Shown here in pieces: positions 27,073 to 37,505 of a stretch of 37,505 nucleotides of DNA; within the stretch, counting starts at the first letter, position 1; each line of letters begins with the position of its first letter. The DNA comes from a virus (Duplodnaviria > Heunggongvirae > Uroviricota > Caudoviricetes). A model generated the notes under the pieces. The model was not told where the DNA came from and searched no databases. It was given only the letters and a program-made list of their open reading frames with translations. The stretch lies in IMG/VR virus record IMGVR_UViG_2721755658_000003; one strand, 5' to 3'. Position numbers and translations under genes: made by a program.

Positions 27073-28512
27073 TCATTTTATAGAATCAAGGTTATCGGCG
27101 TTCATCATACTTTCAAAACCAGTTCCCATACGTCCATATCTAACCCCTGAATTATGCATACTCTGAGCGCCGGCCTTAACCTTCAATTTGATCTCTTGCG
27201 CTGACGCTATCCCAGCAATCATTGCTAAATATTCAAAATACTTATGCTGTGTCGCTCTTAAAAATAGTTCAGGTCTATAATTATAACTCGCATAATAAAT
27301 AGTGCATGGATACCAATAGACACCATCATTACAAAATGAATAAAAAAGAACTAGCACATCAGCCTGCATAAGATCAGAAAAGGTAATATCTTCCCTATCT
27401 GCATTTCTTTTAATTAGCTCTGCAACTGGAGAGTAATACCTTATATCTTCTTCAAAACCTGCCTGTAGCGTTTCAGAATCAGCTAAGAAAGCGCTAATTG
27501 ACACGAGTCTATGTTCCGGTGGTAACTGCCTATCACCAGAAAGGAATCTGGCAGATAAAATCGCACGTACTAATTGAAACTTCTCTAATCTAATCAATAT
27601 AGCAACTGAATATAAGAAAATTTCGTATGCAAATACCTTTTGTGCATCATACCAGTTTAATTGCCATGAACTGACATCGCTAGGAGCTTCGGTTAGTAAC
27701 AGAACTTTTTCAAAGAACTTTACTAGTTCTGTTGAAAATTCATCCTGCATCGTAAACTCTGCCTCAAGAGTTATCCATTCACACACATAATCCCTGATAG
27801 GCTTCATGGCAGCAACGTCGCTAATTATTTTCCTACCCATGCTTTGCAAATCATTTTGCTCTGGGCGAGCTCGGATTCTCATCCCGTCAAGGTACTTGAC
27901 TACTGAATCAACGAAATCACGCCGATAATAACTAACACCTGCCCTATTTTGCAAAACAGCTTGTTTCAAGCTATTAAATTTTGCGTGTGGTTCACTCACC
28001 GGATCATATTGCCCACTATCTAAATAACTGGGTCTTTTTCCAAGCTTAGGTTTTATATCTGCTGGTTTTCCATTAAGCAGCCTTACTAACCGTTCCCAAT
28101 TTTGATTTTCTTTTTCTGGTGTTGAAAGGTCAATCCATATTAACGAACTCATAAAAACAGGAAGACAAGGTTCTGAATTCTCATCAAATTCACAAACAAT
28201 AGGTATAAATTTTGATTGTTCGACTTTTGTGTAGACTTGTTGAGAGATGATCTGGGATTCTGTGCCAACCCCACTTTGTTTGTTATCAGCTTTTTTTGCG
28301 TAAACTGAATCACACATCACAAGCACATTGGTGATACTTTTATCAACAATCATTTTTTCCATGAATGCGTTTTTATCATTGCCCTCCTTCAAATCATATA
28401 TGTCAATGACAACATCCACTCCATCACTCAAAAGTCTATCAGCTATTGCTTTAACTCTTTCCTTATGAGCTGGGCTACTCCAACTATATGATATAAAAAC
28501 TTTTGGCGTCAT
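27073..28512 (-). CDS. accessory protein with N-terminal SEFIR/TIR-like domain and uncharacterised C-terminal region; candidate defence protein
   Basis: N-terminus MTPKVFISYSWSSPAHKERVKAIADRLLSDGVDVVIDIYDL matches the SEFIR/TIR_2 signature; AT-rich; lies between cos and the portal gene. Confidence 0.65.
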   Translation of the reverse strand: MTPKVFISYSWSSPAHKERVKAIADRLLSDGVDVVIDIYDLKEGNDKNAFMEKMIVDKSITNVLVMCDSVYAKKADNKQSGVGTESQIISQQVYTKVEQSKFIPIVCEFDENSEPCLPVFMSSLIWIDLSTPEKENQNWERLVRLLNGKPADIKPKLGKRPSYLDSGQYDPVSEPHAKFNSLKQAVLQNRAGVSYYRRDFVDSVVKYLDGMRIRARPEQNDLQSMGRKIISDVAAMKPIRDYVCEWITLEAEFTMQDEFSTELVKFFEKVLLLTEAPSDVSSWQLNWYDAQKVFAYEIFLYSVAILIRLEKFQLVRAILSARFLSGDRQLPPEHRLVSISAFLADSETLQAGFEEDIRYYSPVAELIKRNADREDITFSDLMQADVLVLFYSFCNDGVYWYPCTIYYASYNYRPELFLRATQHKYFEYLAMIAGIASAQEIKLKVKAGAQSMHNSGVRYGRMGTGFESMMNADNLDSIK

Positions 28513-28915: not shown

Positions 28916-29593
28916 CTAGAACGTGACAGCCTTGTCAAAGCCAGAAATAATTGTATAAGAAATAGACGAGTTATCAGCCTTGTTCACTTTGAACTTGGCA
29001 CCTTTGTAAGCGATAACGTCACTTCCCTTAGAATCTACAGAAAAATCTGTTGTAAATGCTGCACGAGCCATATCGTTTGCAAATTCACGATAGGTGAACT
29101 TCATTACACCGCCTGCATTTCCATTGTATTCGATAGTCTTAACCAATGAGTTACTAACTCGACACAGCCCATCAGGAACACGTTTGATAGAAATTTCTGA
29201 TGCAGTATAAGAAGTACCATTTGGCGGTGATATCTCATTTTTTGCAGCATCGTAACTAACATAATCAACATAGTTACCGATTTGCCCATAGAGATTTTTT
29301 AACGCAACAGCTTGAGGGTTATGATAATTGCGGTAAATTCCATTCCCCTCACTGCAATATGTACCAGCAGCGATAGAAGACAATGCACCATTAGCCGCAC
29401 CAAGTTCTAGTACGTCCGTTTTAAATCCAGTAGCAGATGTGATAATGGGATCGCCCATGTAGGCGGTAGCACTTTGCCCAATAGCAGGCTTCACCACTTC
29501 AATAGCAGTGATATTTCGGTTAGAAGCATGTGGCACGCAACCAGTTAGGATTACAGCAAGAGATATTGGTAACGCTACATTATTAATTTTCAT
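28916..29593 (-). CDS. accessory lipoprotein of unknown function
   Basis: Start at MKINNVALPISLAVILTGC (ATG 29593) giving signal peptide plus lipobox LTGC; C-terminal aromatic residue; AT-rich. Confidence 0.6.
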   Translation of the reverse strand: MKINNVALPISLAVILTGCVPHASNRNITAIEVVKPAIGQSATAYMGDPIITSATGFKTDVLELGAANGALSSIAAGTYCSEGNGIYRNYHNPQAVALKNLYGQIGNYVDYVSYDAAKNEISPPNGTSYTASEISIKRVPDGLCRVSNSLVKTIEYNGNAGGVMKFTYREFANDMARAAFTTDFSVDSKGSDVIAYKGAKFKVNKADNSSISYTIISGFDKAVTF

Positions 29594-29616
29594 TTTTAGC
29601 CTATTATTCTTTTCTT

Positions 29617-29651
29617 GACAAAAAACAAGGCGATATCTGATTGACATCGCC
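29617..29651 (-). terminator. rho-independent terminator after the DinI-like gene
   Basis: Minus-strand hairpin GGCGATGTC...GATATCGCC followed by TTGTTTTTTG. Confidence 0.45.
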
Positions 29652-29706: not shown

Positions 29707-29940
29707 TCAATGCAGCCAGCTGTCGTCTTCCCACACCTTCTGCATAATTTTCATCACTTGTTTTCTTTCTTCGTCCAGTTGCAGTCCGGTCAGTTCCACA
29801 CCGTTAGAGCTACCTTTACGGATACGGATTACCGTTTTGGGATACAGGGGGCGCAGATTGCGGTAAAGCTCGGATTCAAGGGCGTCCAGGGTAGACTGGC
29901 TAATCTTCTGCTCTTTATCGATCATTATTTCAATGCGCAT
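29707..29940 (-). CDS. DinI-like protein
   Basis: Start at MRIEIMIDKEQ with SD GAGGTGA 5 nt upstream; resembles E. coli DinI (MRIEVTIAK...QETWE) in length and pattern. Confidence 0.65.
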   Translation of the reverse strand: MRIEIMIDKEQKISQSTLDALESELYRNLRPLYPKTVIRIRKGSSNGVELTGLQLDEERKQVMKIMQKVWEDDSWLH

Positions 29941-29950
29941 AAAAGTCACC

Positions 29951-30139
29951 TCAGTTGATGACATCCATTGAGCGGTTGTATTCGTGGCTTCTGATTTTTG
30001 CCATGAGTTCATCAGTCAATTCAGAAACCCACTGCAGAGCCAGCCCCTTCTCTTCATCACTACACTCACTAGCCGCTACAAGCTTAAGAAAAAAATCAAT
30101 GCGCTGGAGCTTCAAAGACTCCAAAAAATAGTCCTGCAT
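29951..30139 (-). CDS. small SOS-controlled hypothetical protein, first gene of the LexA-box operon
   Basis: 62-aa ORF with strong SD (AGGAGGAAAG) and a LexA box 43 bp upstream. Confidence 0.5.
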   Translation of the reverse strand: MQDYFLESLKLQRIDFFLKLVAASECSDEEKGLALQWVSELTDELMAKIRSHEYNRSMDVIN

Positions 30140-30181
30140 CTTTCCTCCTATGACACCACACGCAATACTGTATGTATAACC

Positions 30182-30199
30182 ACTGTTTATATTTACAGT
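30182..30199 (-). promoter_or_regulatory. LexA (SOS) box overlapping the promoter of the small-ORF/DinI-like operon
   Basis: ACTGTTTATATTTACAGT has a perfect CTGT-N8-ACAG core; overlaps a -10-like TATACT and a TTTACA -35 on the minus strand; a second degenerate box overlaps at 30166-30185. Confidence 0.7.
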
Positions 30200-30292
30200 A
30201 TATAATAATCTTACTGATGTAAAACGTTTTTTTACGCTTATCAGCCTGATATGCCTGGTATTATTAAGAGCACGAATTGTTAACCAGCGTAA

Positions 30293-32707
30293 TTAATACA
30301 GGTTCCGCCACTTATCATCTTCCTGCAAACGCTGGTTCCGATAGAAGATACGCAGGCCTGCTCCTGACGGAATACTGCCGCCGCGAAGGAGTAAATCGAC
30401 CTCTTTCTCGCTGCCATCAAATCCTCTGGATTTCAGTTCATAGACGAGCTGCTGTCGTTGATGGTCTGTAATTCGCTGTTTGTAGTCTCTACGCCGTTTC
30501 GGTTTCACCAGACGTAACCTTGCAGCCAGTTCCCGGCGCTCCTTTTTGTTCATACTGTGCAGGTAATCGTGCAACACCTTGTCATCCATGCGGGTAATGT
30601 CCGTTCTGGGGTCCCCATCAGCTGATTTATCTTTCTCCTGTTGGTTCAAATTTTCAGCAAGGGGACAGTTATTGCCACGAGTCCAAGGGGCGCAAGCGCC
30701 CTGGTCGGCTGCCGCCTCCTGAACGTCAACGGCTTTACGAACCATTTTCCACTTCACTGCATGAGTGCAGATCTTGCCCTCTGCAATGGGTGACCAGATG
30801 CCATAAATACGAATGCCGTGATCGCCATAGGCGGTCGGCTCTTCGTTGATTTCATAAGCGGTTCTGATGAGGTGATATTTACGGGGAACCAGTACGCCGC
30901 CCTGCTTCATGATGTAGGTGGCAAAACAACCAGCATCAGCAGCAGCCAGGATGGCATCAAGGCGCGGGTTATCCAGTACCGGCGCACCTGCTTTTTTGTC
31001 CCCCTTTTGCCTTGCCGCCTGACCAGCCAGCAATCGCAGTTCACGGTAAGCCTGACGCCCCGGAATGCCAAAGAAGCGGAATTGCTGAACACGATGCAGA
31101 GACGCCCAGGCATTCACGTATTCAGCGTTATCACGCAGAGATTTACCCGTTTCCTTGCTGATCTCGCCAGCCAGACCACGCCCGTCAATGTTCTTACTGA
31201 TGTATTTCGCTATGTAGCTTGTCGGCGTTCCTTTGCGCGGGTTAATCAGCTCAGACTTAAAGCGCGGCCCCGTGTTATTGCCCAGCTCCTCGCGGTCTTC
31301 ACGGATAGCAAACTTACGCAACAATGCTGTAATGGCGCGGCGGTCTTTTTTGCGCATGAAACACAACAGGTGCCAGTGAACGGTGCCGTCGTGATGCGGC
31401 TCAGCCACCCGCACGCCATACCAGCGCAACCCGGCTTTGTGCATCGCCTTACGAAATGCAGCAAACATACCGACCAGATAATCGCTGCTTTGTCTTACCG
31501 TCGCATTTGTCCAGATCGGGTTGGGCCTGCCGTTATTTAGCGTGGAATGGAAACGTGACGGACAGGTGATGGTGTAGAAAACGGCGCAGTCACCGCGCAT
31601 TTCCGCGATAAGCTCCAGACCTTTAACACAGGCCATCATCTCATTGCGGCGATGCGCAGGGTTGCTGCTGCTGGCGTTTACCACATCCTCCATGTCTAGC
31701 GTGTCGCCGTCTTCGTTCACCAGTTCATGAGAACGGAAAAACTCCAGCGACTTACGGCGCTGCTCACGTTTATGCAACACGGCTTCATAGCTGACATAGG
31801 GAGATGCTTTTTTGCTGACAAGGCAGACAGCACGCAACTGCTCTTCCCGCCATTCGCAACGCATCTTCCATAATTTCCGATACCACCAGTCGGCGCACAA
31901 CATACGCGCCAGCGAACCCGGAATGAGTTCATAGGGCACGGGTTTACGGCGGTTTCTTTTCCGACGGAGTTGCTCAAACGCAGGCGGGATGACATCCAGA
32001 CGCAGGGTTTCCGCTGCCACCCTTTCCCATGTATTGCGGATTTCTTCTGGCTTAACGTCATCGGTGGCATACAAATCGCCACAAGCGGCATCAAGGCACA
32101 TACTCATATGCGCAGCTACCAGGGTGGACAGGCGTTTCACCTGATCCTGACTCATTTCAGGCAGGATCAGCAGGCCGTCCAGCCCTTCATGGCTTGCCAT
32201 AAAGCGAAAAGATGCAGATAGCTGACTGTCGCGTACATGCTCCAGTCGTTCCAGACATGGCTTAATCGTCTCACGTAAATAGCGGGAATAAGCCTTTGGC
32301 CTGCCCAGGCTGCTGAAGTATTCAATACGTTGCATCAGCGGCTTGCTGATATGGGAAGGCTGGGCGTTGACGTCCGCCAGAATGACCATATCCGGATTAA
32401 AACGCTGCTGCTCATGCGCCAGCTTTGCCCGACTAATGAGCTTATCCTGTTCCATTTCGCGCTGGACAGGATCACGGGATTCATTAAAGAAATAACGCTC
32501 CCAGACCTGATCACTCAGCGCCTCACGGCGCAGCTGTTCCTGCTCGTTATCGGCAGCGTACAGAGTGATCAGGTTTGAAAGCGTAGAAACCGGCGCAACT
32601 TCCGCCGGGTCCAGATAAGGGTTAATGGCCTTTTTCGAGCTGTTCCATGAGAACGATGCGGCAGCTTCGTTAAAGCCGCAGCAGTTGTTCATATCGGCAT
32701 GACTCAT
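30293..32707 (-). CDS. replication initiation endonuclease (gpA-like, rolling-circle initiator)
   Basis: 804-aa ORF with [15 protein letters not shown] motif typical of P2 A-family initiators. Confidence 0.85.
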
Positions 32708-34598: not shown

Positions 34599-35108
34599 TC
34601 ACAGCAAACCAAATGAAGCACCGAGGCCAGTCACGGTATCAACTGCACTCGCCATCGCAGGATTAGCCTGTAAACGGGCCTGCAATGAAACAGCCGCCAG
34701 CGCCATCAGTCGTGTTACAGAGTTAATGCTGCTGATAGCATCACGACGACCGGCACAGGTTTTTACATCGCCAGACACCGCACCTGCAGCAACACGCCCG
34801 ATCTCTGCGGTTGCACTCATGACGTAATGTGGCAGTTTCTCTTTTGCCACCTCATTAATCGGTACACATGGCAGACAATGAATCTGTGCCAGAAAACCAT
34901 CTACCAGCGTTGAATCTTCAGTCAGATCGGTAAGCAGCCAGATTTCTGGTGCGGTTAATAAATGAGGCTGAGCTGGGTTCAGCTTGTTCCGCAGAATCTG
35001 CACATTCATGCCTGCACGTTCTGCCAGTTGCACCAGATTGTGGCGCAGTGCAAATGCACGACAGGCTTCATCAAAATGTGGATGTTTGGAAACTTGGTAA
35101 TCAAACAT
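34599..35108 (-). CDS. cII: CII-like transcriptional activator (phage 186 CII type)
   Basis: Near-identical to 186 CII as recalled ([11 protein letters not shown]...AGMNVQ.LRNKLNP...[25 protein letters not shown]...GASFGL). Confidence 0.85.
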
Positions 35109-35140
35109 GGTCAATGCCTCTGATGTATTTCAGAATCGAA

Positions 35141-35362
35141 CTAATTAAGGTTTAGATTGCATTCTGAAAGCGCATCAACGGTCATTGCTGCTATGTTGAT
35201 CATCACTTTTTCGCGTTTTTTATCTTTGCGCAGACGGTGACGGATAAGGCGTCCATCAGCCAACATGTCATTGATGGTATCGATGGATAGCCCTGTCAGC
35301 TCGCTATAGCGTTCAATAGTCACATGAGGCGTGGTAAGAGTGATTGAAATGTTAGGTCTCAT
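35141..35362 (-). CDS. apl: Apl/Cox-like excisionase and transcriptional regulator
   Basis: 73-aa ORF, first gene of the early operon divergent from cI; HTH-like [18 protein letters not shown]. Confidence 0.65.
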
Positions 35363-35463: not shown

Positions 35464-35487
35464 GATAAAAGTTCACTTGGAGTGACC

Positions 35488-36057
35488 ATGAATTTGGAGA
35501 AAGGCGGACGAGGCGCCATAGAGCGCATGGTAGAAGCTTATGGATTCAAGACTCGACAGGCGTTGTGCGATCATTTAGGAATCTCTAAAAGTACACTCGC
35601 CACACGCTACATGCGTGACTCATTCCCAGCAGAATGGGTAATCCAGTGCGCCCTTGAAACAGGCACCTCGCTTAATTGGCTCACAACCGGGCATGGTTCA
35701 AAGCAAACTTCAGGTAATACAAATACTATGGAAGTTGCTAAATATGTATTATCTGATGGGGCCTTGTGTGAAGACGGTTTTTATATTTTCGATAGAGAAT
35801 TTCTACCGTCGGCATTCAAGAATCTTTTTGTAATCACAGATAATAATTCTGAATTTATTTGTGATAAGGAATTTGATGATATACGTGATGGTAAATGGGT
35901 AATAAGTATTGATGGCGAAATAACGATCCGTGACATTACTCGTTTACCCGGTGGAAGAATCTTCGTCGAGGGTGGAAACAGAGCCTTTGAATGTAAGATA
36001 GAAGACATTGAAATAATTGGTAAAATTATAAGTTTAACAGTCAAGTATGTTAAATAG
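35488..36057 (+). CDS. cI: CI immunity repressor (phage 186 CI type)
   Basis: ATG at 35488 with SD GGAG 5 nt upstream (ORF track uses GTG at 35482); resembles 186 CI (EAYGF, CALETG..L.WL.TG, C-terminal RLPGG..FVEGG). Confidence 0.8.
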   Translation: MNLEKGGRGAIERMVEAYGFKTRQALCDHLGISKSTLATRYMRDSFPAEWVIQCALETGTSLNWLTTGHGSKQTSGNTNTMEVAKYVLSDGALCEDGFYIFDREFLPSAFKNLFVITDNNSEFICDKEFDDIRDGKWVISIDGEITIRDITRLPGGRIFVEGGNRAFECKIEDIEIIGKIISLTVKYVK

Positions 36058-36072
36058 TACCGGGAGGAAATT

Positions 36073-36264
36073 ATGCTTGGTAAGGTATTTTTTGTGGTTT
36101 TGTCATGTTCTTTGTTATTAAACCCACTAGCTACCTATGCTAGAAATTATCCCTGCTCAGGGAAAAAGGGAGGTGTTTCTCACTGTACCTCTGATGGCAA
36201 ATTCGTTTGCAATGATGGAACTATTAGTAAATCCAAAAAAATCTGTACTAAAAACTCACGATAA
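36073..36264 (+). CDS. small secreted cysteine-rich protein, unknown function
   Basis: 63-aa ORF with SD GGGAGG, signal-peptide-like N-terminus and four Cys in the mature part; between cI and int. Confidence 0.5.
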
Positions 36265-36403
36265 CTTTTGCTTTTATATCTGCACCTAAAATAAAAATGA
36301 GCCACAGGTTAACCGCAAAAGTTACATGATCACATAGCAAAAAGAATAGCCTACTTCATTATGGCTTCAGTGAGATGTATGGTCGCAGGATTTCATACAT
36401 TGA

Positions 36404-36423
36404 CACTGGTTATACATACAGTA
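36404..36423. promoter_or_regulatory. LexA-box-like motif upstream of int
   Basis: CACTGGTTATACATACAGTA, a CTGG-N8-ACAG with one core mismatch; 18 of 20 positions identical to the reverse complement of 30166-30185. Confidence 0.3.
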
Positions 36424-36452
36424 AAAATGCTCTCTATTGGAGGGCATTTTTT

Positions 36453-37505
36453 ATGGCTGTACGAAAACTCACCACAGGAAAATGGCTTTGCGAATGTTAC
36501 CCCGCCGGACGTAGTGGGCGTCGTGTGCGTAAACAATTCGCCACCAAAGGCGAAGCACTGGCTTTTGAGCGTCACACGATGGAAGAAACCGAAGCAAAGC
36601 CCTGGCTAGGTGAATCAGTGGATCGTCGAACACTGAAAGACGTGGTTGAGCTATGGTTCAAACTACATGGTAAATCACTGACTGCTGGGCAGCATGTCTA
36701 TGACAAATTGCTGCTGATGGTTGACGCTCTGGGCAATCCCCTTGCAACTGATCTAACCTCTAAAATGTTTGCCCACTATCGAGATAAACGCCTGACAGGT
36801 GAGATCTACTTCAGCGAGAAATGGAAGAAAGGAGCAAGCCCGGTCACCATTAACCTGGAGCAAAGCTATCTAAGTAGTGTTTTTAGCGAACTATCCCGCC
36901 TGGGCGAATGGTCGTATCCGAACCCACTGGAGAACATGCGAAAATTCACCATCGCAGAAAAAGAGATGGCATGGCTTACCCATGAGCAGATTGTTGAATT
37001 ACTGGCTGATTGCAAACGTCAGGACCCAATTCTGGCACTGGTAGTTAAGATATGCTTAAGCACAGGCGCACGCTGGCGAGAAGCCGTAAATCTTACTCGT
37101 TCACAGGTGACCAAATACCGAATTACCTTTGTAAGAACGAAGGGGAAGAAAAACAGAAGCATCCCTATCAGTAAAGAGCTTTACGAAGAGATCATGGCGC
37201 TTGATGGGTTCAATTTCTTCACAGACTGCTATTTTCAATTTTTATCCGTGATGGAAAAAACGTCTATCGTGCTCCCTCGCGGTCAACTCACACACGTTCT
37301 GCGCCATACGTTTGCGGCGCACTTCATGATGTCGGGTGGAAACATTCTGGCCTTACAAAAAATTCTCGGACACCACGATATAAAAATGACTATGCGTTAC
37401 GCACATCTGGCACCGGATCATCTGGAAACGGCGCTCCGTTTCAATCCTCTGGCAACGCTGCCAAGTGGCGACAAAGTGGCGGCAGCGGTTGGCATTACCC
37501 CGTAA
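36453..37505 (+). CDS. int: tyrosine integrase (P2 Int family)
   Basis: Start at MAVRKLTTGKW; conserved CLSTGARWREA and HVLRHTFAAHFMMSGG...Y motifs as in P2 Int; stop codon is the last three bases of the window. Confidence 0.85.
   Translation: MAVRKLTTGKWLCECYPAGRSGRRVRKQFATKGEALAFERHTMEETEAKPWLGESVDRRTLKDVVELWFKLHGKSLTAGQHVYDKLLLMVDALGNPLATDLTSKMFAHYRDKRLTGEIYFSEKWKKGASPVTINLEQSYLSSVFSELSRLGEWSYPNPLENMRKFTIAEKEMAWLTHEQIVELLADCKRQDPILALVVKICLSTGARWREAVNLTRSQVTKYRITFVRTKGKKNRSIPISKELYEEIMALDGFNFFTDCYFQFLSVMEKTSIVLPRGQLTHVLRHTFAAHFMMSGGNILALQKILGHHDIKMTMRYAHLAPDHLETALRFNPLATLPSGDKVAAAVGITP

What the first reader, a model, noticed from the sequence alone, without database searches (positions are those of the whole stretch)
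36265..36452. LexA-box-like 20-mer upstream of int that repeats the sequence next to the SOS operon box
CACTGGTTATACATACAGTA at 36404-36423, 30 bp upstream of the int start, is 18 of 20 identical to the reverse complement of 30166-30185, which abuts the perfect LexA box. Both resemble LexA operators with one or two core mismatches. Either int expression is partly SOS-responsive or this shared sequence is the operator for another phage regulator such as a Tum, CI or Apl target. P2-type phages are classically non-inducible, so SOS wiring of both an antirepressor module and the int region would be notable.
Basis: seen in the sequence. Interest (0 to 1): 0.4.

Follow-up and report, generated by a model that had tools for sequence, protein, structure and literature searches.

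The report
SOS-controlled integrase promoter in a 186-like prophage
The repeated 20-mer is a LexA (DNA-damage repressor) binding site inside a dedicated promoter for the prophage integrase gene, which also carries a site for the phage's lysogeny activator CII, so integrase synthesis appears tied to both DNA damage and the lysogeny decision.

Summary
36404-36423 and the reverse complement of 30166-30185 match at 19 of 20 bases, not 18, and none is expected by chance.

Both sequences are LexA operators. No other regulator's site is needed to explain them.
- **Site at 30166-30185:** it is the promoter-proximal box of a colicin-type double SOS box in front of the Fels-2-type SOS operon. It shares one core base with the perfect box.
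- **Site at 36404-36423:** it is an intact CTG-N10-CAG box and the best LexA-like site in the window. It fills the spacer of a near-consensus promoter, TTGACA-17-AAAAAT, 29 nt upstream of int.

Forty of about 69 full-length related loci, from about 19 enterobacterial genera, keep this box at the same position. CTG and CAG stay fixed while the spacer varies.

The 19/20 identity itself is not conserved. It falls to 12-17/20 in relatives.

- A dyad, ATGTATG-N12-CATACAT, abuts the -35. It matches the phage 186 CII operator and the window's own pE site.
- A covarying hairpin holds the ribosome-binding site, and the predicted transcription start falls inside its 5' arm.

Phages 186 and Fels-2 themselves lack this module, because their int is fused to cI. 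All functional claims are computational. No published description was found.

The parts
36375..36400 (+). Dyad ATGTATG-N12-CATACAT, a putative CII activator site abutting the -35 of the int promoter
   Evidence: It is one of only two matches to ATGTWTG-N12/13-CAWACAT in the window, with 0 expected by chance. The other match is the pE-type site at the start of cII. The 186 record annotates G-ATGTTTG-N13-CAAACAT as 'CII; activate pE'. In about 1.3 Mb of related loci the dyad occurs almost only at these two positions.
36400..36405 (+). -35 hexamer TTGACA of the int promoter (P_int)
   Evidence: The promoter scan finds TTGACA-17-AAAAAT with 10/12 matches. TTGAC or TTTAC is conserved in relatives.
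36404..36423 (+). LexA operator (SOS box) CACTGGTTATACATACAGTA, core CTG-N10-CAG at 36406-36421, filling the -35/-10 spacer
   Evidence: Its HI-like score is 4.19, the best in the window; the next non-SOS site scores 15.4. A degenerate SOS-box pattern finds only this site and the two SOS-operon boxes, with 0.01 expected. It is conserved at 27-35 nt from the int ATG in 40 genome loci plus phages KP12, 4LV2017, 813R9 and ESSI2_ev129.
36423..36428 (+). -10 hexamer AAAAAT of P_int
   Evidence: Found by the promoter scan. The bases after the box, (T/A)AAAT, remain conserved although the hairpin sequence that follows differs between lineages.
36423..36452 (+). Hairpin AAAAATGCTCTC-tattg-GAGGGCATTTTT followed by a T run. 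The core stem is 36429-36445, and the Shine-Dalgarno GGAGGG (36439-36444) lies in the 3' arm. It resembles both a terminator and a ribosome-binding-site-sequestering structure.
   Evidence: The tested stretch 36418-36460 folds at -18.3 kcal/mol, z = -5.7; that structure also pairs a few flanking bases beyond this hairpin. A hairpin with an unrelated stem sequence is present in 25 of 28 lineages. The TSS predicted 7 nt after the -10 falls inside the 5' arm in 23 of 25 lineages.
36453..37505 (+). int, a P2/186-family tyrosine integrase of 350 aa; the window ends at its stop codon
   Evidence: Pfam Int_N and Phage_integrase. It is 100% identical to the integrase of phage vB_EcoM-813R9 and 54% to those of Fels-2 and PSP3.
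30181..30200 (-). SOS-operon LexA box 1 (perfect CTGT-N8-ACAG at 30183-30198). Its left half, TACTGT (30200-30195), serves as the -10 of a p95-type promoter whose -35 is TTTACA (30223-30218).
   Evidence: HI-like score 4.29. The layout is the same as the annotated 186 p95, where the -10 TACTGT lies inside the LexA site.
30166..30185 (-). SOS-operon LexA box 2 (CAGTGGTTATACATACAGTA), the promoter-proximal box of a double SOS operator; its core shares one base with box 1
   Evidence: HI-like score 8.68. The tandem arrangement is conserved in Fels-2, 4LV2017, KP12, L005, L010, L048, L050, L051, L056, L057, L059 and L081. Colicin and klebicin plasmids carry the same architecture, TACTGTATATAAAACCAGTGGTTATATGTACAGTA, upstream of the bacteriocin gene.
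29707..30139 (-). SOS operon: orf62 (29951-30139, the position of the Fels-2/PSP3 antirepressor half of Tum) and a DinI-like gene (29707-30012, probable start near 29940)
   Evidence: Pfam DinI. The DinI-like protein is 41% identical to the C-terminal half of 186 Tum. The region is 97% identical to Fels-2. The antirepressor role of orf62 is inferred from position and from PMC3121763; BLASTP shows no similarity to 186 Tum.
35082..35108 (+). pE-type CII site ATGTTTG-N13-CAAACAT at the 5' end of cII, pointing towards cI; its -10-like CAGAAT (35131-35136) starts 23 nt after the proximal half-site, the same offset as in P_int
   Evidence: It is the same sequence as the annotated 186 CII site.
34599..35114 (-). 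cII, the 186-type lysogeny activator and the presumed ligand of the dyad
   Evidence: Pfam Phage_CP76, E = 4e-42.
35482..36264 (+). cI (35482-36057, 186-type repressor) and the cargo ORF orf63 (36073-36264), which separate the lysogenic promoter from int
   Evidence: Pfam Phage_CI_repr and Phage_CI_C; orf63 has no Pfam family. In relatives this slot holds different genes.

Best explanation
The window is a Fels-2/186-like (P2-family) prophage. In it, int is not co-transcribed with cI as it is in phage 186. It has its own promoter, P_int.

**The two copies of the 20-mer.** The 20-mer at 36404-36423 is a LexA operator occupying the spacer between the -35 (TTGACA) and the -10 (AAAAAT). LexA bound there should block RNA polymerase in the undamaged lysogen. 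RecA-stimulated LexA cleavage should release int transcription at the same time as the Tum-type antirepressor operon. The copy at 30166-30185 is the second, promoter-proximal box of a colicin-type double LexA operator on that SOS operon. The near-identity of the two 20-mers is incidental: they are two good LexA sites in one genome, and it has no function of its own.

**What is shown here.**
- The sequence match.
- The LexA-like quality of both sites.
- The position of the int box inside a promoter-like site.
- Conservation of the LexA-critical bases, but not the spacer, across many genera.

**What is inferred.**
- Actual LexA binding and SOS induction.
- That the dyad ATGTATG-N12-CATACAT immediately upstream is a CII site. 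This would make P_int a second pE-type promoter, the functional analogue of lambda pI, so that Int is also made when lysogeny is established and is boosted after derepression.
- That the hairpin between the -10 and the ATG terminates or translationally silences read-through transcripts from cI and the cargo gene, while transcripts started at P_int begin inside its 5' arm and escape.
For: **Match and chance**
- 19/20 identity (20/21 when extended), with none expected by chance.

**LexA-like quality**
- HI-like scores are 4.19 for the int box, 4.29 for SOS box 1 and 8.68 for SOS box 2. The next best site in 37.5 kb scores 15.4.
- The same matrix gives values close to published HI values for recA, umuDC, lexA and colicin E1 (PMC2994835, Table 3).
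- A degenerate SOS-box pattern hits only these three sites, with 0.01 expected.

**Promoter**
- TTGACA-17-AAAAAT, 10/12 matches.

**Conservation**
- 45 loci (40 distinct sequences) keep the box 27-35 nt from the int ATG. CTG and CAG are invariant, and the spacer is variable but A/T-rich. The information profile correlates with known LexA sites at r = 0.75.
- Across 77 loci, LexA-like sites occur almost only upstream of the tum-like operon and upstream of int.
- Loci where int directly follows cI (186, Fels-2, L049-L061, L081) lack the box.

**Near-identity is not conserved**
- It is 17/20 in L005, 16 in 4LV2017, 14 in KP12, 14 in L010 and 12 in L048. The int box is also 15-17/20 identical to box 1.

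**Double box**
- The same architecture sits in front of colicin and klebicin genes on plasmids. PMC2994835 describes colicin genes as having two overlapping SOS boxes.

**CII dyad**
-.
- CII is encoded in the window.

**Hairpin**
-.
Against: - No experiment supports this. No binding, transcription-start or expression data were available.
- The LexA matrix was built from E. coli sites recalled from memory. It was cross-checked only against a few published HI values and against colicin plasmid sequences.
- The -10 is only 4/6, and an alternative -10 (TACAGT inside the box) would place the hairpin inside the P_int transcript.
- A LexA site in the spacer of a CII-dependent promoter raises a problem. 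It is unclear how Int would be made on infection of an undamaged cell, where LexA is intact. CII may outcompete LexA, but this is untested.
- The P_int dyad differs from the pE site by one base per half-site and has N12 instead of N13. Whether 186-type CII tolerates this is unknown.
- Some relatives have weak boxes, for example CCCTGTCCAAACATACAGTT with a score of 11.4.
Confidence: 0.75

Rival explanations
1. The shared 20-mer is the operator of a phage-encoded regulator (CI, Apl or another protein) that co-regulates the SOS operon and int, and is not a LexA site.
For: The 19/20 identity exceeds what two unrelated LexA sites usually share. Both sites lie in phage regulatory regions.
Against: - No related sequence occurs in the pR/pL switch region or anywhere else in the window, even with 3 mismatches allowed.
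- In relatives the two sites are only 12-17/20 identical, and what stays fixed is exactly the LexA core.
- The box is kept in phages whose CI is 41-60% identical to the window's, and in Rahnella and Pantoea elements with no CI or Apl homologue within 9 kb.
- The SOS-operon tandem is the same as in colicin plasmids that encode no phage regulator.
Confidence: 0.04
2. The int-proximal box is a sequence relic or a chance palindrome with no regulatory role. On this reading int is expressed only by read-through from pL/pE, as in phage 186.
For: In 186, Fels-2 and PSP3, int has no promoter of its own. No expression data are available for this phage.
Against: - The box, the -35, the -10-like AAAT, the dyad and the hairpin are all kept at fixed spacing in 40 distinct sequences from about 19 genera, while flanking and spacer sequence diverges.
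- In the Rahnella and Pantoea group the same module precedes int in a different genomic context, after tail gene D and an ogr-like gene, where read-through from cI is impossible.
- A terminator-like hairpin lies between the upstream genes and int.
Confidence: 0.06
3. P_int is chiefly a CII-dependent establishment promoter, a pI analogue. On this reading the LexA box only trims basal activity or links integration to host state. SOS induction of int is not needed for excision, because CII made after derepression suffices.
For: - The dyad matches the 186 CII site in sequence, spacing and distance to the -10.
- CII is produced from pR after Tum inactivates CI (PMC7708051).
Against: - The -35 is consensus (TTGACA), unlike typical activator-dependent promoters, so the promoter should fire once LexA leaves.
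- LexA-core conservation is as strong as dyad conservation.
- This rival differs from the best explanation in emphasis, not in anatomy.
Confidence: 0.15

Closest known systems
Phage 186 p95 / Fels-2 and PSP3 SOS operon (LexA-repressed Tum antirepressor)
   Same: - The window carries this operon at the same place, just after replication gene A.
- The LexA box overlaps a TACTGT -10, and a DinI-like gene equals the C-terminal half of Tum.
- Literature: PMC3121763 and PMC7708051.
   Different: - 186 has a single box, whereas the window and Fels-2 have a double box.
- 186 and Fels-2 have no LexA box at int, because cI and int are contiguous.
Colicin-type double (overlapping) SOS boxes
   Same: The SOS-operon operator TACTGTAAATATAAACAGTGGTTATACATACAGTA has the same two-box layout as colicin and klebicin promoters, TACTGTATATAAAACCAGTGGTTATATGTACAGTA. 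The layout shares one core base and has a GTGG start for box 2 (PMC2994835).
   Different: Here it controls a phage antirepressor operon and not a bacteriocin. Cooperative binding of two LexA dimers was not tested.
LexA-repressed integron integrase promoters (intI; Guerin et al. 2009, as cited in PMC3323433)
   Same: A LexA box overlaps the promoter of a tyrosine recombinase gene, so recombination is licensed by DNA damage.
   Different: - The recombinase clade and type of element differ.
- Here the recombinase excises a prophage together with an excisionase (Apl).
- Here the promoter also carries an activator dyad.
Phage lambda pI (CII-activated int promoter)
   Same: It is a dedicated int promoter that responds to the lysogeny-establishment activator and is separate from the repressor operon (PMC7708051, introduction).
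   Different: - Lambda CII and 186-type CII are unrelated proteins with different sites.
- pI has no LexA operator.
- This is a functional analogy only.
Phage 186 pE (CII-activated establishment promoter)
   Same: - Seven-base inverted half-sites, ATGTTTG/CAAACAT, lie about two helical turns apart and abut the -35 region.
- The distance from the proximal half-site to the -10 is the same as at the window's own pE.
   Different: - P_int has ATGTATG/CATACAT and N12 in this window; relatives have ATGTTTG with N12 or N13.
- P_int has a consensus -35, a LexA box in the spacer, and drives int, not cI.
IS10/IS50 'fold-back inhibition' of transposase translation from external transcripts (own knowledge; Davis, Simons and Kleckner 1985)
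   Same: Transcripts entering from outside contain a 5' segment that pairs with the ribosome-binding site. Transcripts from the element's own promoter start inside that segment and stay translatable. This is the geometry predicted.
   Different: - It is purely predicted here.
- In many lineages the hairpin also has a U run and may terminate transcription, not only block translation.

Membership tests
LexA operator (E. coli-type SOS box) | Palindromic CTG-N10-CAG core with an A/T-rich spacer (consensus TACTGTATATATATACAGTA) | tested here: met
   The int box is CACTGGTTATACATACAGTA, with an intact CTG-N10-CAG core. SOS box 1 is perfect. SOS box 2 has CAC for CAG, as does the proximal box of colicin operators.
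LexA operator (E. coli-type SOS box) | Heterology-index-type score in the range of validated sites | tested here: met
   HI-like scores are 4.19 (int), 4.29 and 8.68, against 2.0-12.7 for the 23 training sites and 15.4 or more for the rest of the window. Caveat: the training sites came from memory. The matrix roughly reproduces published HI values.
LexA operator (E. coli-type SOS box) | Overlaps the promoter of the regulated gene | tested here: met
   The box lies in the -35/-10 spacer of TTGACA-17-AAAAAT. The promoter itself is predicted and has not been mapped.
LexA operator (E. coli-type SOS box) | LexA-contact positions conserved in orthologous promoters while other positions drift | tested here: met
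   In 40 distinct sequences the CTG and CAG columns carry 1.8-2.0 bits and the spacer columns 0.75-1.25 bits; r = 0.75 with the profile of known sites.
LexA operator (E. coli-type SOS box) | LexA binds in vitro or in vivo, and the gene is derepressed by DNA damage or in lexA(Def) | not testable with these tools
   No binding or expression data were available, and no paper reporting it was found.
Colicin-type double SOS operator | Two SOS boxes offset by 15 bp whose 16-bp cores share one base | tested here: met
   The cores are at 30168-30183 and 30183-30198. The layout is identical in bacteriocin plasmids and conserved in Fels-2-type relatives.
Colicin-type double SOS operator | Cooperative occupancy by two LexA dimers giving tight repression | not testable with these tools
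   This needs footprinting or reporter assays.
186-type CII-activated promoter (pE class) | Inverted 7-bp half-sites ATGTTTG/CAAACAT about 20 bp apart centre to centre | tested here: met
   36375-36400 is ATGTATG-N12-CATACAT. It has one symmetric substitution per half-site and a centre-to-centre distance of 19 bp. Relatives have ATGTTTG with N12 or N13. The reference site comes from the 186 record.
186-type CII-activated promoter (pE class) | Proximal half-site abuts or overlaps the -35 region at a fixed distance from the -10 | tested here: met
   The -10 starts 23 nt after the proximal half-site both at the window's pE (CAGAAT, 35131) and at P_int (AAAAAT, 36423). The -38/-58 positions quoted for 186 pE are from memory.
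186-type CII-activated promoter (pE class) | A CII (Phage_CP76) protein is encoded by the same element | tested here: met
   In the window, cII at 34599-35114 matches PF06892 at 4e-42. For the Rahnella and Pantoea group this could not be checked, because the rest of the prophage lies outside the fetched loci.
186-type CII-activated promoter (pE class) | Transcription is activated by CII | not testable with these tools
   This needs a reporter assay with CII supplied in trans.
Phage 186-type lysogenic operon (pL-cI-int co-transcription) | int directly follows or overlaps cI and has no promoter of its own | tested here: not met
   In the window cI ends at 36057 and int starts at 36453, with orf63, a promoter and a terminator-like hairpin between them. 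In 186 and Fels-2 the two genes are contiguous.

The most novel reading that the evidence does not exclude
A large clade of 186-like prophages has replaced cI-int co-transcription with a self-contained three-part int control cassette. Matches to this upstream region occur in about one in five complete E. coli genomes.

- **Promoter:** activated by CII for integration and repressed by LexA, so Int for excision is made only on DNA damage.
- **Hairpin:** overlaps the transcription start and kills read-through transcripts from upstream.
- **Consequence:** the cassette makes int independent of its neighbours. That would explain why it is found both behind a variable cargo slot after cI and, in the Rahnella and Pantoea group, behind the late gene ogr.
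Probability: 0.4. Interest if true: 0.65.

Novelty: new variant of a known kind. Interest (0 to 1): 0.5.

Why it matters
In phage 186, the model for this family, Int is made continuously from the lysogenic promoter together with CI, and only the antirepressor Tum is under SOS control.

If P_int works as predicted, many natural relatives use a different logic. Int would be silent in the lysogen and switched on directly by LexA cleavage, and probably by CII. This has three consequences.
- **Excision and curing:** it changes how excision timing and prophage curing should be modelled for a very common group of enterobacterial prophages. Matches occur in 1100 of 5426 complete E. coli genomes.
- **Cargo slot:** it explains how a slot for cargo genes between cI and int can be tolerated.
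- **SOS regulon:** it adds a phage integrase to the set of recombinases licensed by the SOS response, alongside integron integrases.

It is also directly testable with simple reporter and gel-shift experiments.

Tried and rejected
- **Rfam:** a scan of 36000-36700 found no family. The only hit was a chance mir-153 match at E = 0.18 over the 36254-36331 hairpin.
- **Literature:** searches for a LexA- or CII-controlled int promoter in P2/186-like phages found nothing.
- **Papers examined that do not mention it:** PMC3448106, PMC3121763, PMC7067206, PMC8072944, PMC12527982 and PMC3323433.
- **Papers not held:** Bunny et al. 2002 (PMC151935), Murchland et al. 2014 (PMC4231686) and Gillor et al. 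2008 (PMC2729051). An existing description in those or in subscription journals therefore cannot be excluded.
- **orf62 versus 186 Tum:** BLASTP found no similarity, so its antirepressor role rests on position and on the Fels-2/PSP3 literature.
- **IMG/VR pattern scan** (AACATTNANNCTGKN8ACAGT): 80 of the 86 stretches returned could be analysed. Of these, 33 had int directly downstream and one more (L094) carried the module on the opposite strand. The rest were chance matches in unrelated genes.
- **Failed runs:** one degenerate pattern was mis-specified and found nothing (corrected). Two literature calls failed on term length.
- **Hairpin covariation:** a multiple alignment was not used, because the stems of different lineages are not alignable. 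Each lineage was folded on its own instead.
- **Recombination-junction idea:** rejected. Homology to the Klebsiella phages starts near 36393, but the box lies inside the conserved module and not at its edge.

Full report
**1. The observation**

The 20-mer at 36404-36423 reads CACTGGTTATACATACAGTA. The reverse complement of 30166-30185 reads CAGTGGTTATACATACAGTA. In 100 dinucleotide-preserving shuffles, no match with up to 3 mismatches was expected. The only third hit in the window is the adjacent perfect LexA box at 30181-30200. The int ATG is at 36453, 29 nt after the box.

**2. What the window is**

The gene order from 29.7 kb to the end of the window is as follows:

| Feature | Coordinates | Strand |
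|---|---|---|
| DinI-like gene and orf62 | 29707-30139 | - |
| Replication gene A | 30293-32707 | - |
| cII (Pfam Phage_CP76) | 34599-35114 | - |
| apl-like gene | 35141-35362 | - |
| 186-type cI | 35482-36057 | + |
| Small ORF (orf63) | 36073-36264 | + |
| int | 36453-37505 | + |

- The SOS-operon region is 97-98% identical to Fels-2 and to many Klebsiella P2-like phages.
- The closest genome locus is from Escherichia sp. MOD1-EC7003 (L005).
- This is a 186/Fels-2-type phage. SOS control of an antirepressor operon is already known for that group: the 186 record annotates p95 with a LexA site, and PMC3121763 and PMC7708051 describe it.
- The DinI-like protein is 41% identical to the C-terminal half of 186 Tum.
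- orf62 has no BLASTP similarity to Tum. It occupies the place of the Fels-2/PSP3 antirepressor half described in PMC3121763.

**3. The copy at 30166-30185 is the second box of a double SOS operator**

Read in the direction of the operon, the sequence is TTTACA-17 nt-TACTGTAAATATAAACAGTGGTTATACATACAGTA-...-GGAGG-ATG.
- The -10 (TACTGT) is the left half of box 1, exactly as in the annotated 186 p95.
- Box 2 starts 15 bp after box 1, and the two 16-bp cores share one base.
- The same arrangement stands in front of colicin-like and klebicin-like genes on small plasmids: TACTGTATATAAAACCAGTGGTTATATGTACAGTA.
- Fels-2 has TACTGTAAATATAAACAGTGGTTATATGTACAGTA.
- The tandem is present in every relative with a Fels-2-type orf62.

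**4. The copy at 36404-36423 is a LexA operator inside a promoter**

I scored every 20-mer in the window with a heterology-index-type matrix. The matrix was built from 23 E. coli LexA sites that I recalled from memory, which is a caveat.

| Site | HI-like score |
|---|---|
| int box | 4.19 (best in the window) |
| SOS box 1 | 4.29 |
| SOS box 2 | 8.68 |
| Next best site in the window | 15.4 |

- The matrix gives values close to published HI values for recA, umuDC, lexA and colicin E1 (Table 3 of PMC2994835).
- A degenerate SOS-box pattern run with the search tool finds only these three sites, with 0.01 expected.
- The promoter scan places the box in the spacer of TTGACA (36400-36405)-17-AAAAAT (36423-36428), with 10/12 matches.

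**5. Comparative evidence**

A scan of one genome per species with the Int protein returned 77 loci.
- In 40 of the roughly 69 loci with an intact int 5' end, a LexA-like site (score 2.0-11.4) lies 27-35 nt upstream of the ATG. In the others the best site in 150 nt scores 16 or more.
- The positive loci come from about 19 genera of Enterobacteriaceae, Yersiniaceae, Erwiniaceae and Pectobacteriaceae.
- Phages KP12, 4LV2017, vB_EcoM-813R9 and ESSI2_ev129 have the box too.
- In 40 distinct sequences, CTG and CAG are invariant or nearly so (1.8-2.0 bits). The spacer carries 0.75-1.25 bits and stays A/T-rich. The information profile correlates with that of known LexA sites (r = 0.75).
- Across all loci, LexA-like sites occur almost exclusively at two places: just downstream of gene A, in front of the tum-like operon, and in front of int.
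- Phages 186, Fels-2 and PSP3, and the loci where int follows cI directly, have no such box.

**6. The near-identity of the two copies is incidental**

Identity between the int box and SOS box 2 in phages that have both is shown below.

| Phage or locus | Identity of int box to SOS box 2 |
|---|---|
| Window | 19/20 |
| L005 (its closest relative) | 17/20 |
| 4LV2017 | 16/20 |
| KP12 | 14/20 |
| L010 | 14/20 |
| L048 | 12/20 |

The int box is also 15-17/20 identical to box 1. Two good LexA sites in these phages therefore share about three quarters of their bases in any case.

Nothing resembling the 20-mer occurs in the pR/pL switch region. The box is kept in phages with very different CI proteins, or with none detectable nearby. 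This rules out a CI, Apl or Tum operator. Tum in any case acts on the CI protein (PMC7708051).

**7.

Immediately upstream of the -35 lies ATGTATG-N12-CATACAT (36375-36400).
- The pattern ATGTWTG-N12/13-CAWACAT occurs twice in the window, with 0 expected. The other copy (35082-35108, ATGTTTG-N13-CAAACAT) sits at the 5' end of cII and points towards cI.
- That second copy is the sequence annotated in the 186 record as 'CII; activate pE'.
- In about 1.3 Mb of related loci, the dyad (up to 1 mismatch) is found almost only at the start of cII and about 80 nt upstream of int.
- The -10-like hexamers of the window's pE (CAGAAT) and of P_int (AAAAAT) both start 23 nt after the proximal half-site.

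I infer that P_int is a second CII-activated promoter, the functional counterpart of lambda pI. This is less certain than the LexA assignment, because the half-sites differ by one base and the spacing by one base pair in this window.

**8. A hairpin holding the ribosome-binding site**

- The stretch 36418-36460, which contains the hairpin at 36423-36452, folds at -18.3 kcal/mol (z = -5.7). The GGAGGG Shine-Dalgarno sequence lies in the 3' arm, and a T run precedes the ATG.
- Hairpins with unrelated stem sequences occupy the same place in 25 of 28 lineages.
- If transcription starts 7 nt after the -10, the start falls inside the 5' arm in 23 of 25 lineages. The resulting transcript then has almost no structure (0 to -3.5 kcal/mol, against -5 to -18 for read-through RNA).

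I infer that the hairpin terminates or translationally silences transcripts coming from cI and the cargo gene, while P_int transcripts escape. This resembles the fold-back inhibition described for IS10 (own knowledge). It depends entirely on the predicted -10.

**9. Context of the module**

- In the window's group, cI and int are separated by 0.1-3.3 kb of variable genes.
- In ESSI2_ev129-type phages, the module fits into a 78-110-bp gap after cI.
- In the Rahnella and Pantoea group, it follows tail gene D and an ogr-like gene.

The module therefore travels with int and does not depend on what lies upstream. Matches to 36265-36560 occur in 1100 of 5426 complete E. coli genomes.

**10. Proposed mechanism**

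- **In the lysogen:** LexA occupies the spacer of P_int and both boxes of the SOS operon. CI keeps pR off, so no CII is made. Any read-through from pL ends at the hairpin, so Int is not made.
- **On DNA damage:** LexA cleavage frees both promoters. The antirepressor inactivates CI, pR fires, and Apl and CII appear. CII may further raise P_int. Int together with Apl then excises the prophage.
- **On infection:** CII would activate pE and P_int together. How it copes with bound LexA is the main open point.

The anatomy and its conservation are shown here. Every binding and expression step is inferred.

**11. Novelty**

LexA-controlled recombinase genes are known (integron intI, cited in PMC3323433), and so are CII-activated int promoters (lambda pI). 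The SOS operon and its double box are ordinary.

I found no description of a LexA- or CII-controlled int promoter in P2/186-like phages in the searchable library. Three key papers could not be read.

I rate it a new variant of a known kind, of moderate interest.

Noticed in passing
window 27073-28512 (-): A 479-aa protein has an N-terminal TIR/SEFIR domain (Pfam E about 5e-15). It lies in the variable region next to the SOS operon and is a candidate anti-phage defence cargo gene. The neighbouring 243-aa ORF (28916-29647, -) has a lipoprotein-like N-terminus and no Pfam family.
   Followed up: partly
window 36073-36264 (+): orf63 is a 63-aa Cys-rich protein with a signal-peptide-like N-terminus and no Pfam family, sitting between cI and int. 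The same slot holds unrelated genes in relatives: a 1.7-kb 'chromosome segregation ATPase' in KP12 and 813R9, a 1-kb gene in 4LV2017, and DUF2511 in PSP3. The cI-int junction therefore behaves as a cargo hotspot.
   Followed up: partly
L039 8576-8602, L034 8575, L032 8575, L036 2964, L031 8099, L029 7681: In Rahnella-group elements a second dyad, ATGTATG-N13-CATACAA, lies upstream of int. In L039, the one locus whose ORFs were listed, it sits just upstream of the ogr-like zinc-finger gene that precedes int. It may mean that a CII-like protein also acts on the late activator gene there.
   Followed up: no
L028-L036, L038-L040, L047, L080 (e.g. L039 3845-10044): In L039 (Rahnella) and L033 (Pantoea), the two loci whose ORFs were listed, int lies directly after tail genes and an ogr-like gene, in the same orientation. 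The other loci of this group show no cI, cII or apl homologue within 9 kb upstream. This gene order differs from both P2 and 186, yet the int promoter module is the same.
   Followed up: partly
window 36254-36331: An imperfect long hairpin, with arms TAACTTTTGC/GCAAAAGTTA 43 nt apart, lies just after the orf63 stop codon. It folds at -15.1 kcal/mol, z = -2.8. It may be the end of the orf63 transcript. Its only Rfam hit is a chance one.
   Followed up: partly
L082 (PSP3), about 90 nt upstream of int, inside the DUF2511 ORF: A weak LexA-like site, TGCTGTTTGGAAAGACAGTC (HI-like score 11.3), is present although PSP3 lacks the P_int module. It is probably chance.
   Followed up: no
L006 and L070 (records titled 'MAG: Bacillota bacterium'): These contigs carry enterobacterial 186-like prophage DNA. 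L006 encodes an Int 99% identical to the window's. This suggests mis-binned or contaminant contigs in those MAGs.
   Followed up: no
L001 / OM835953.1 (Klebsiella phage KP12): The record's taxonomy line says Vequintavirinae, although the sequence is a P2/186-like phage with cII, cI, int, ogr and tail genes. The record appears to be mislabelled or chimeric.
   Followed up: no
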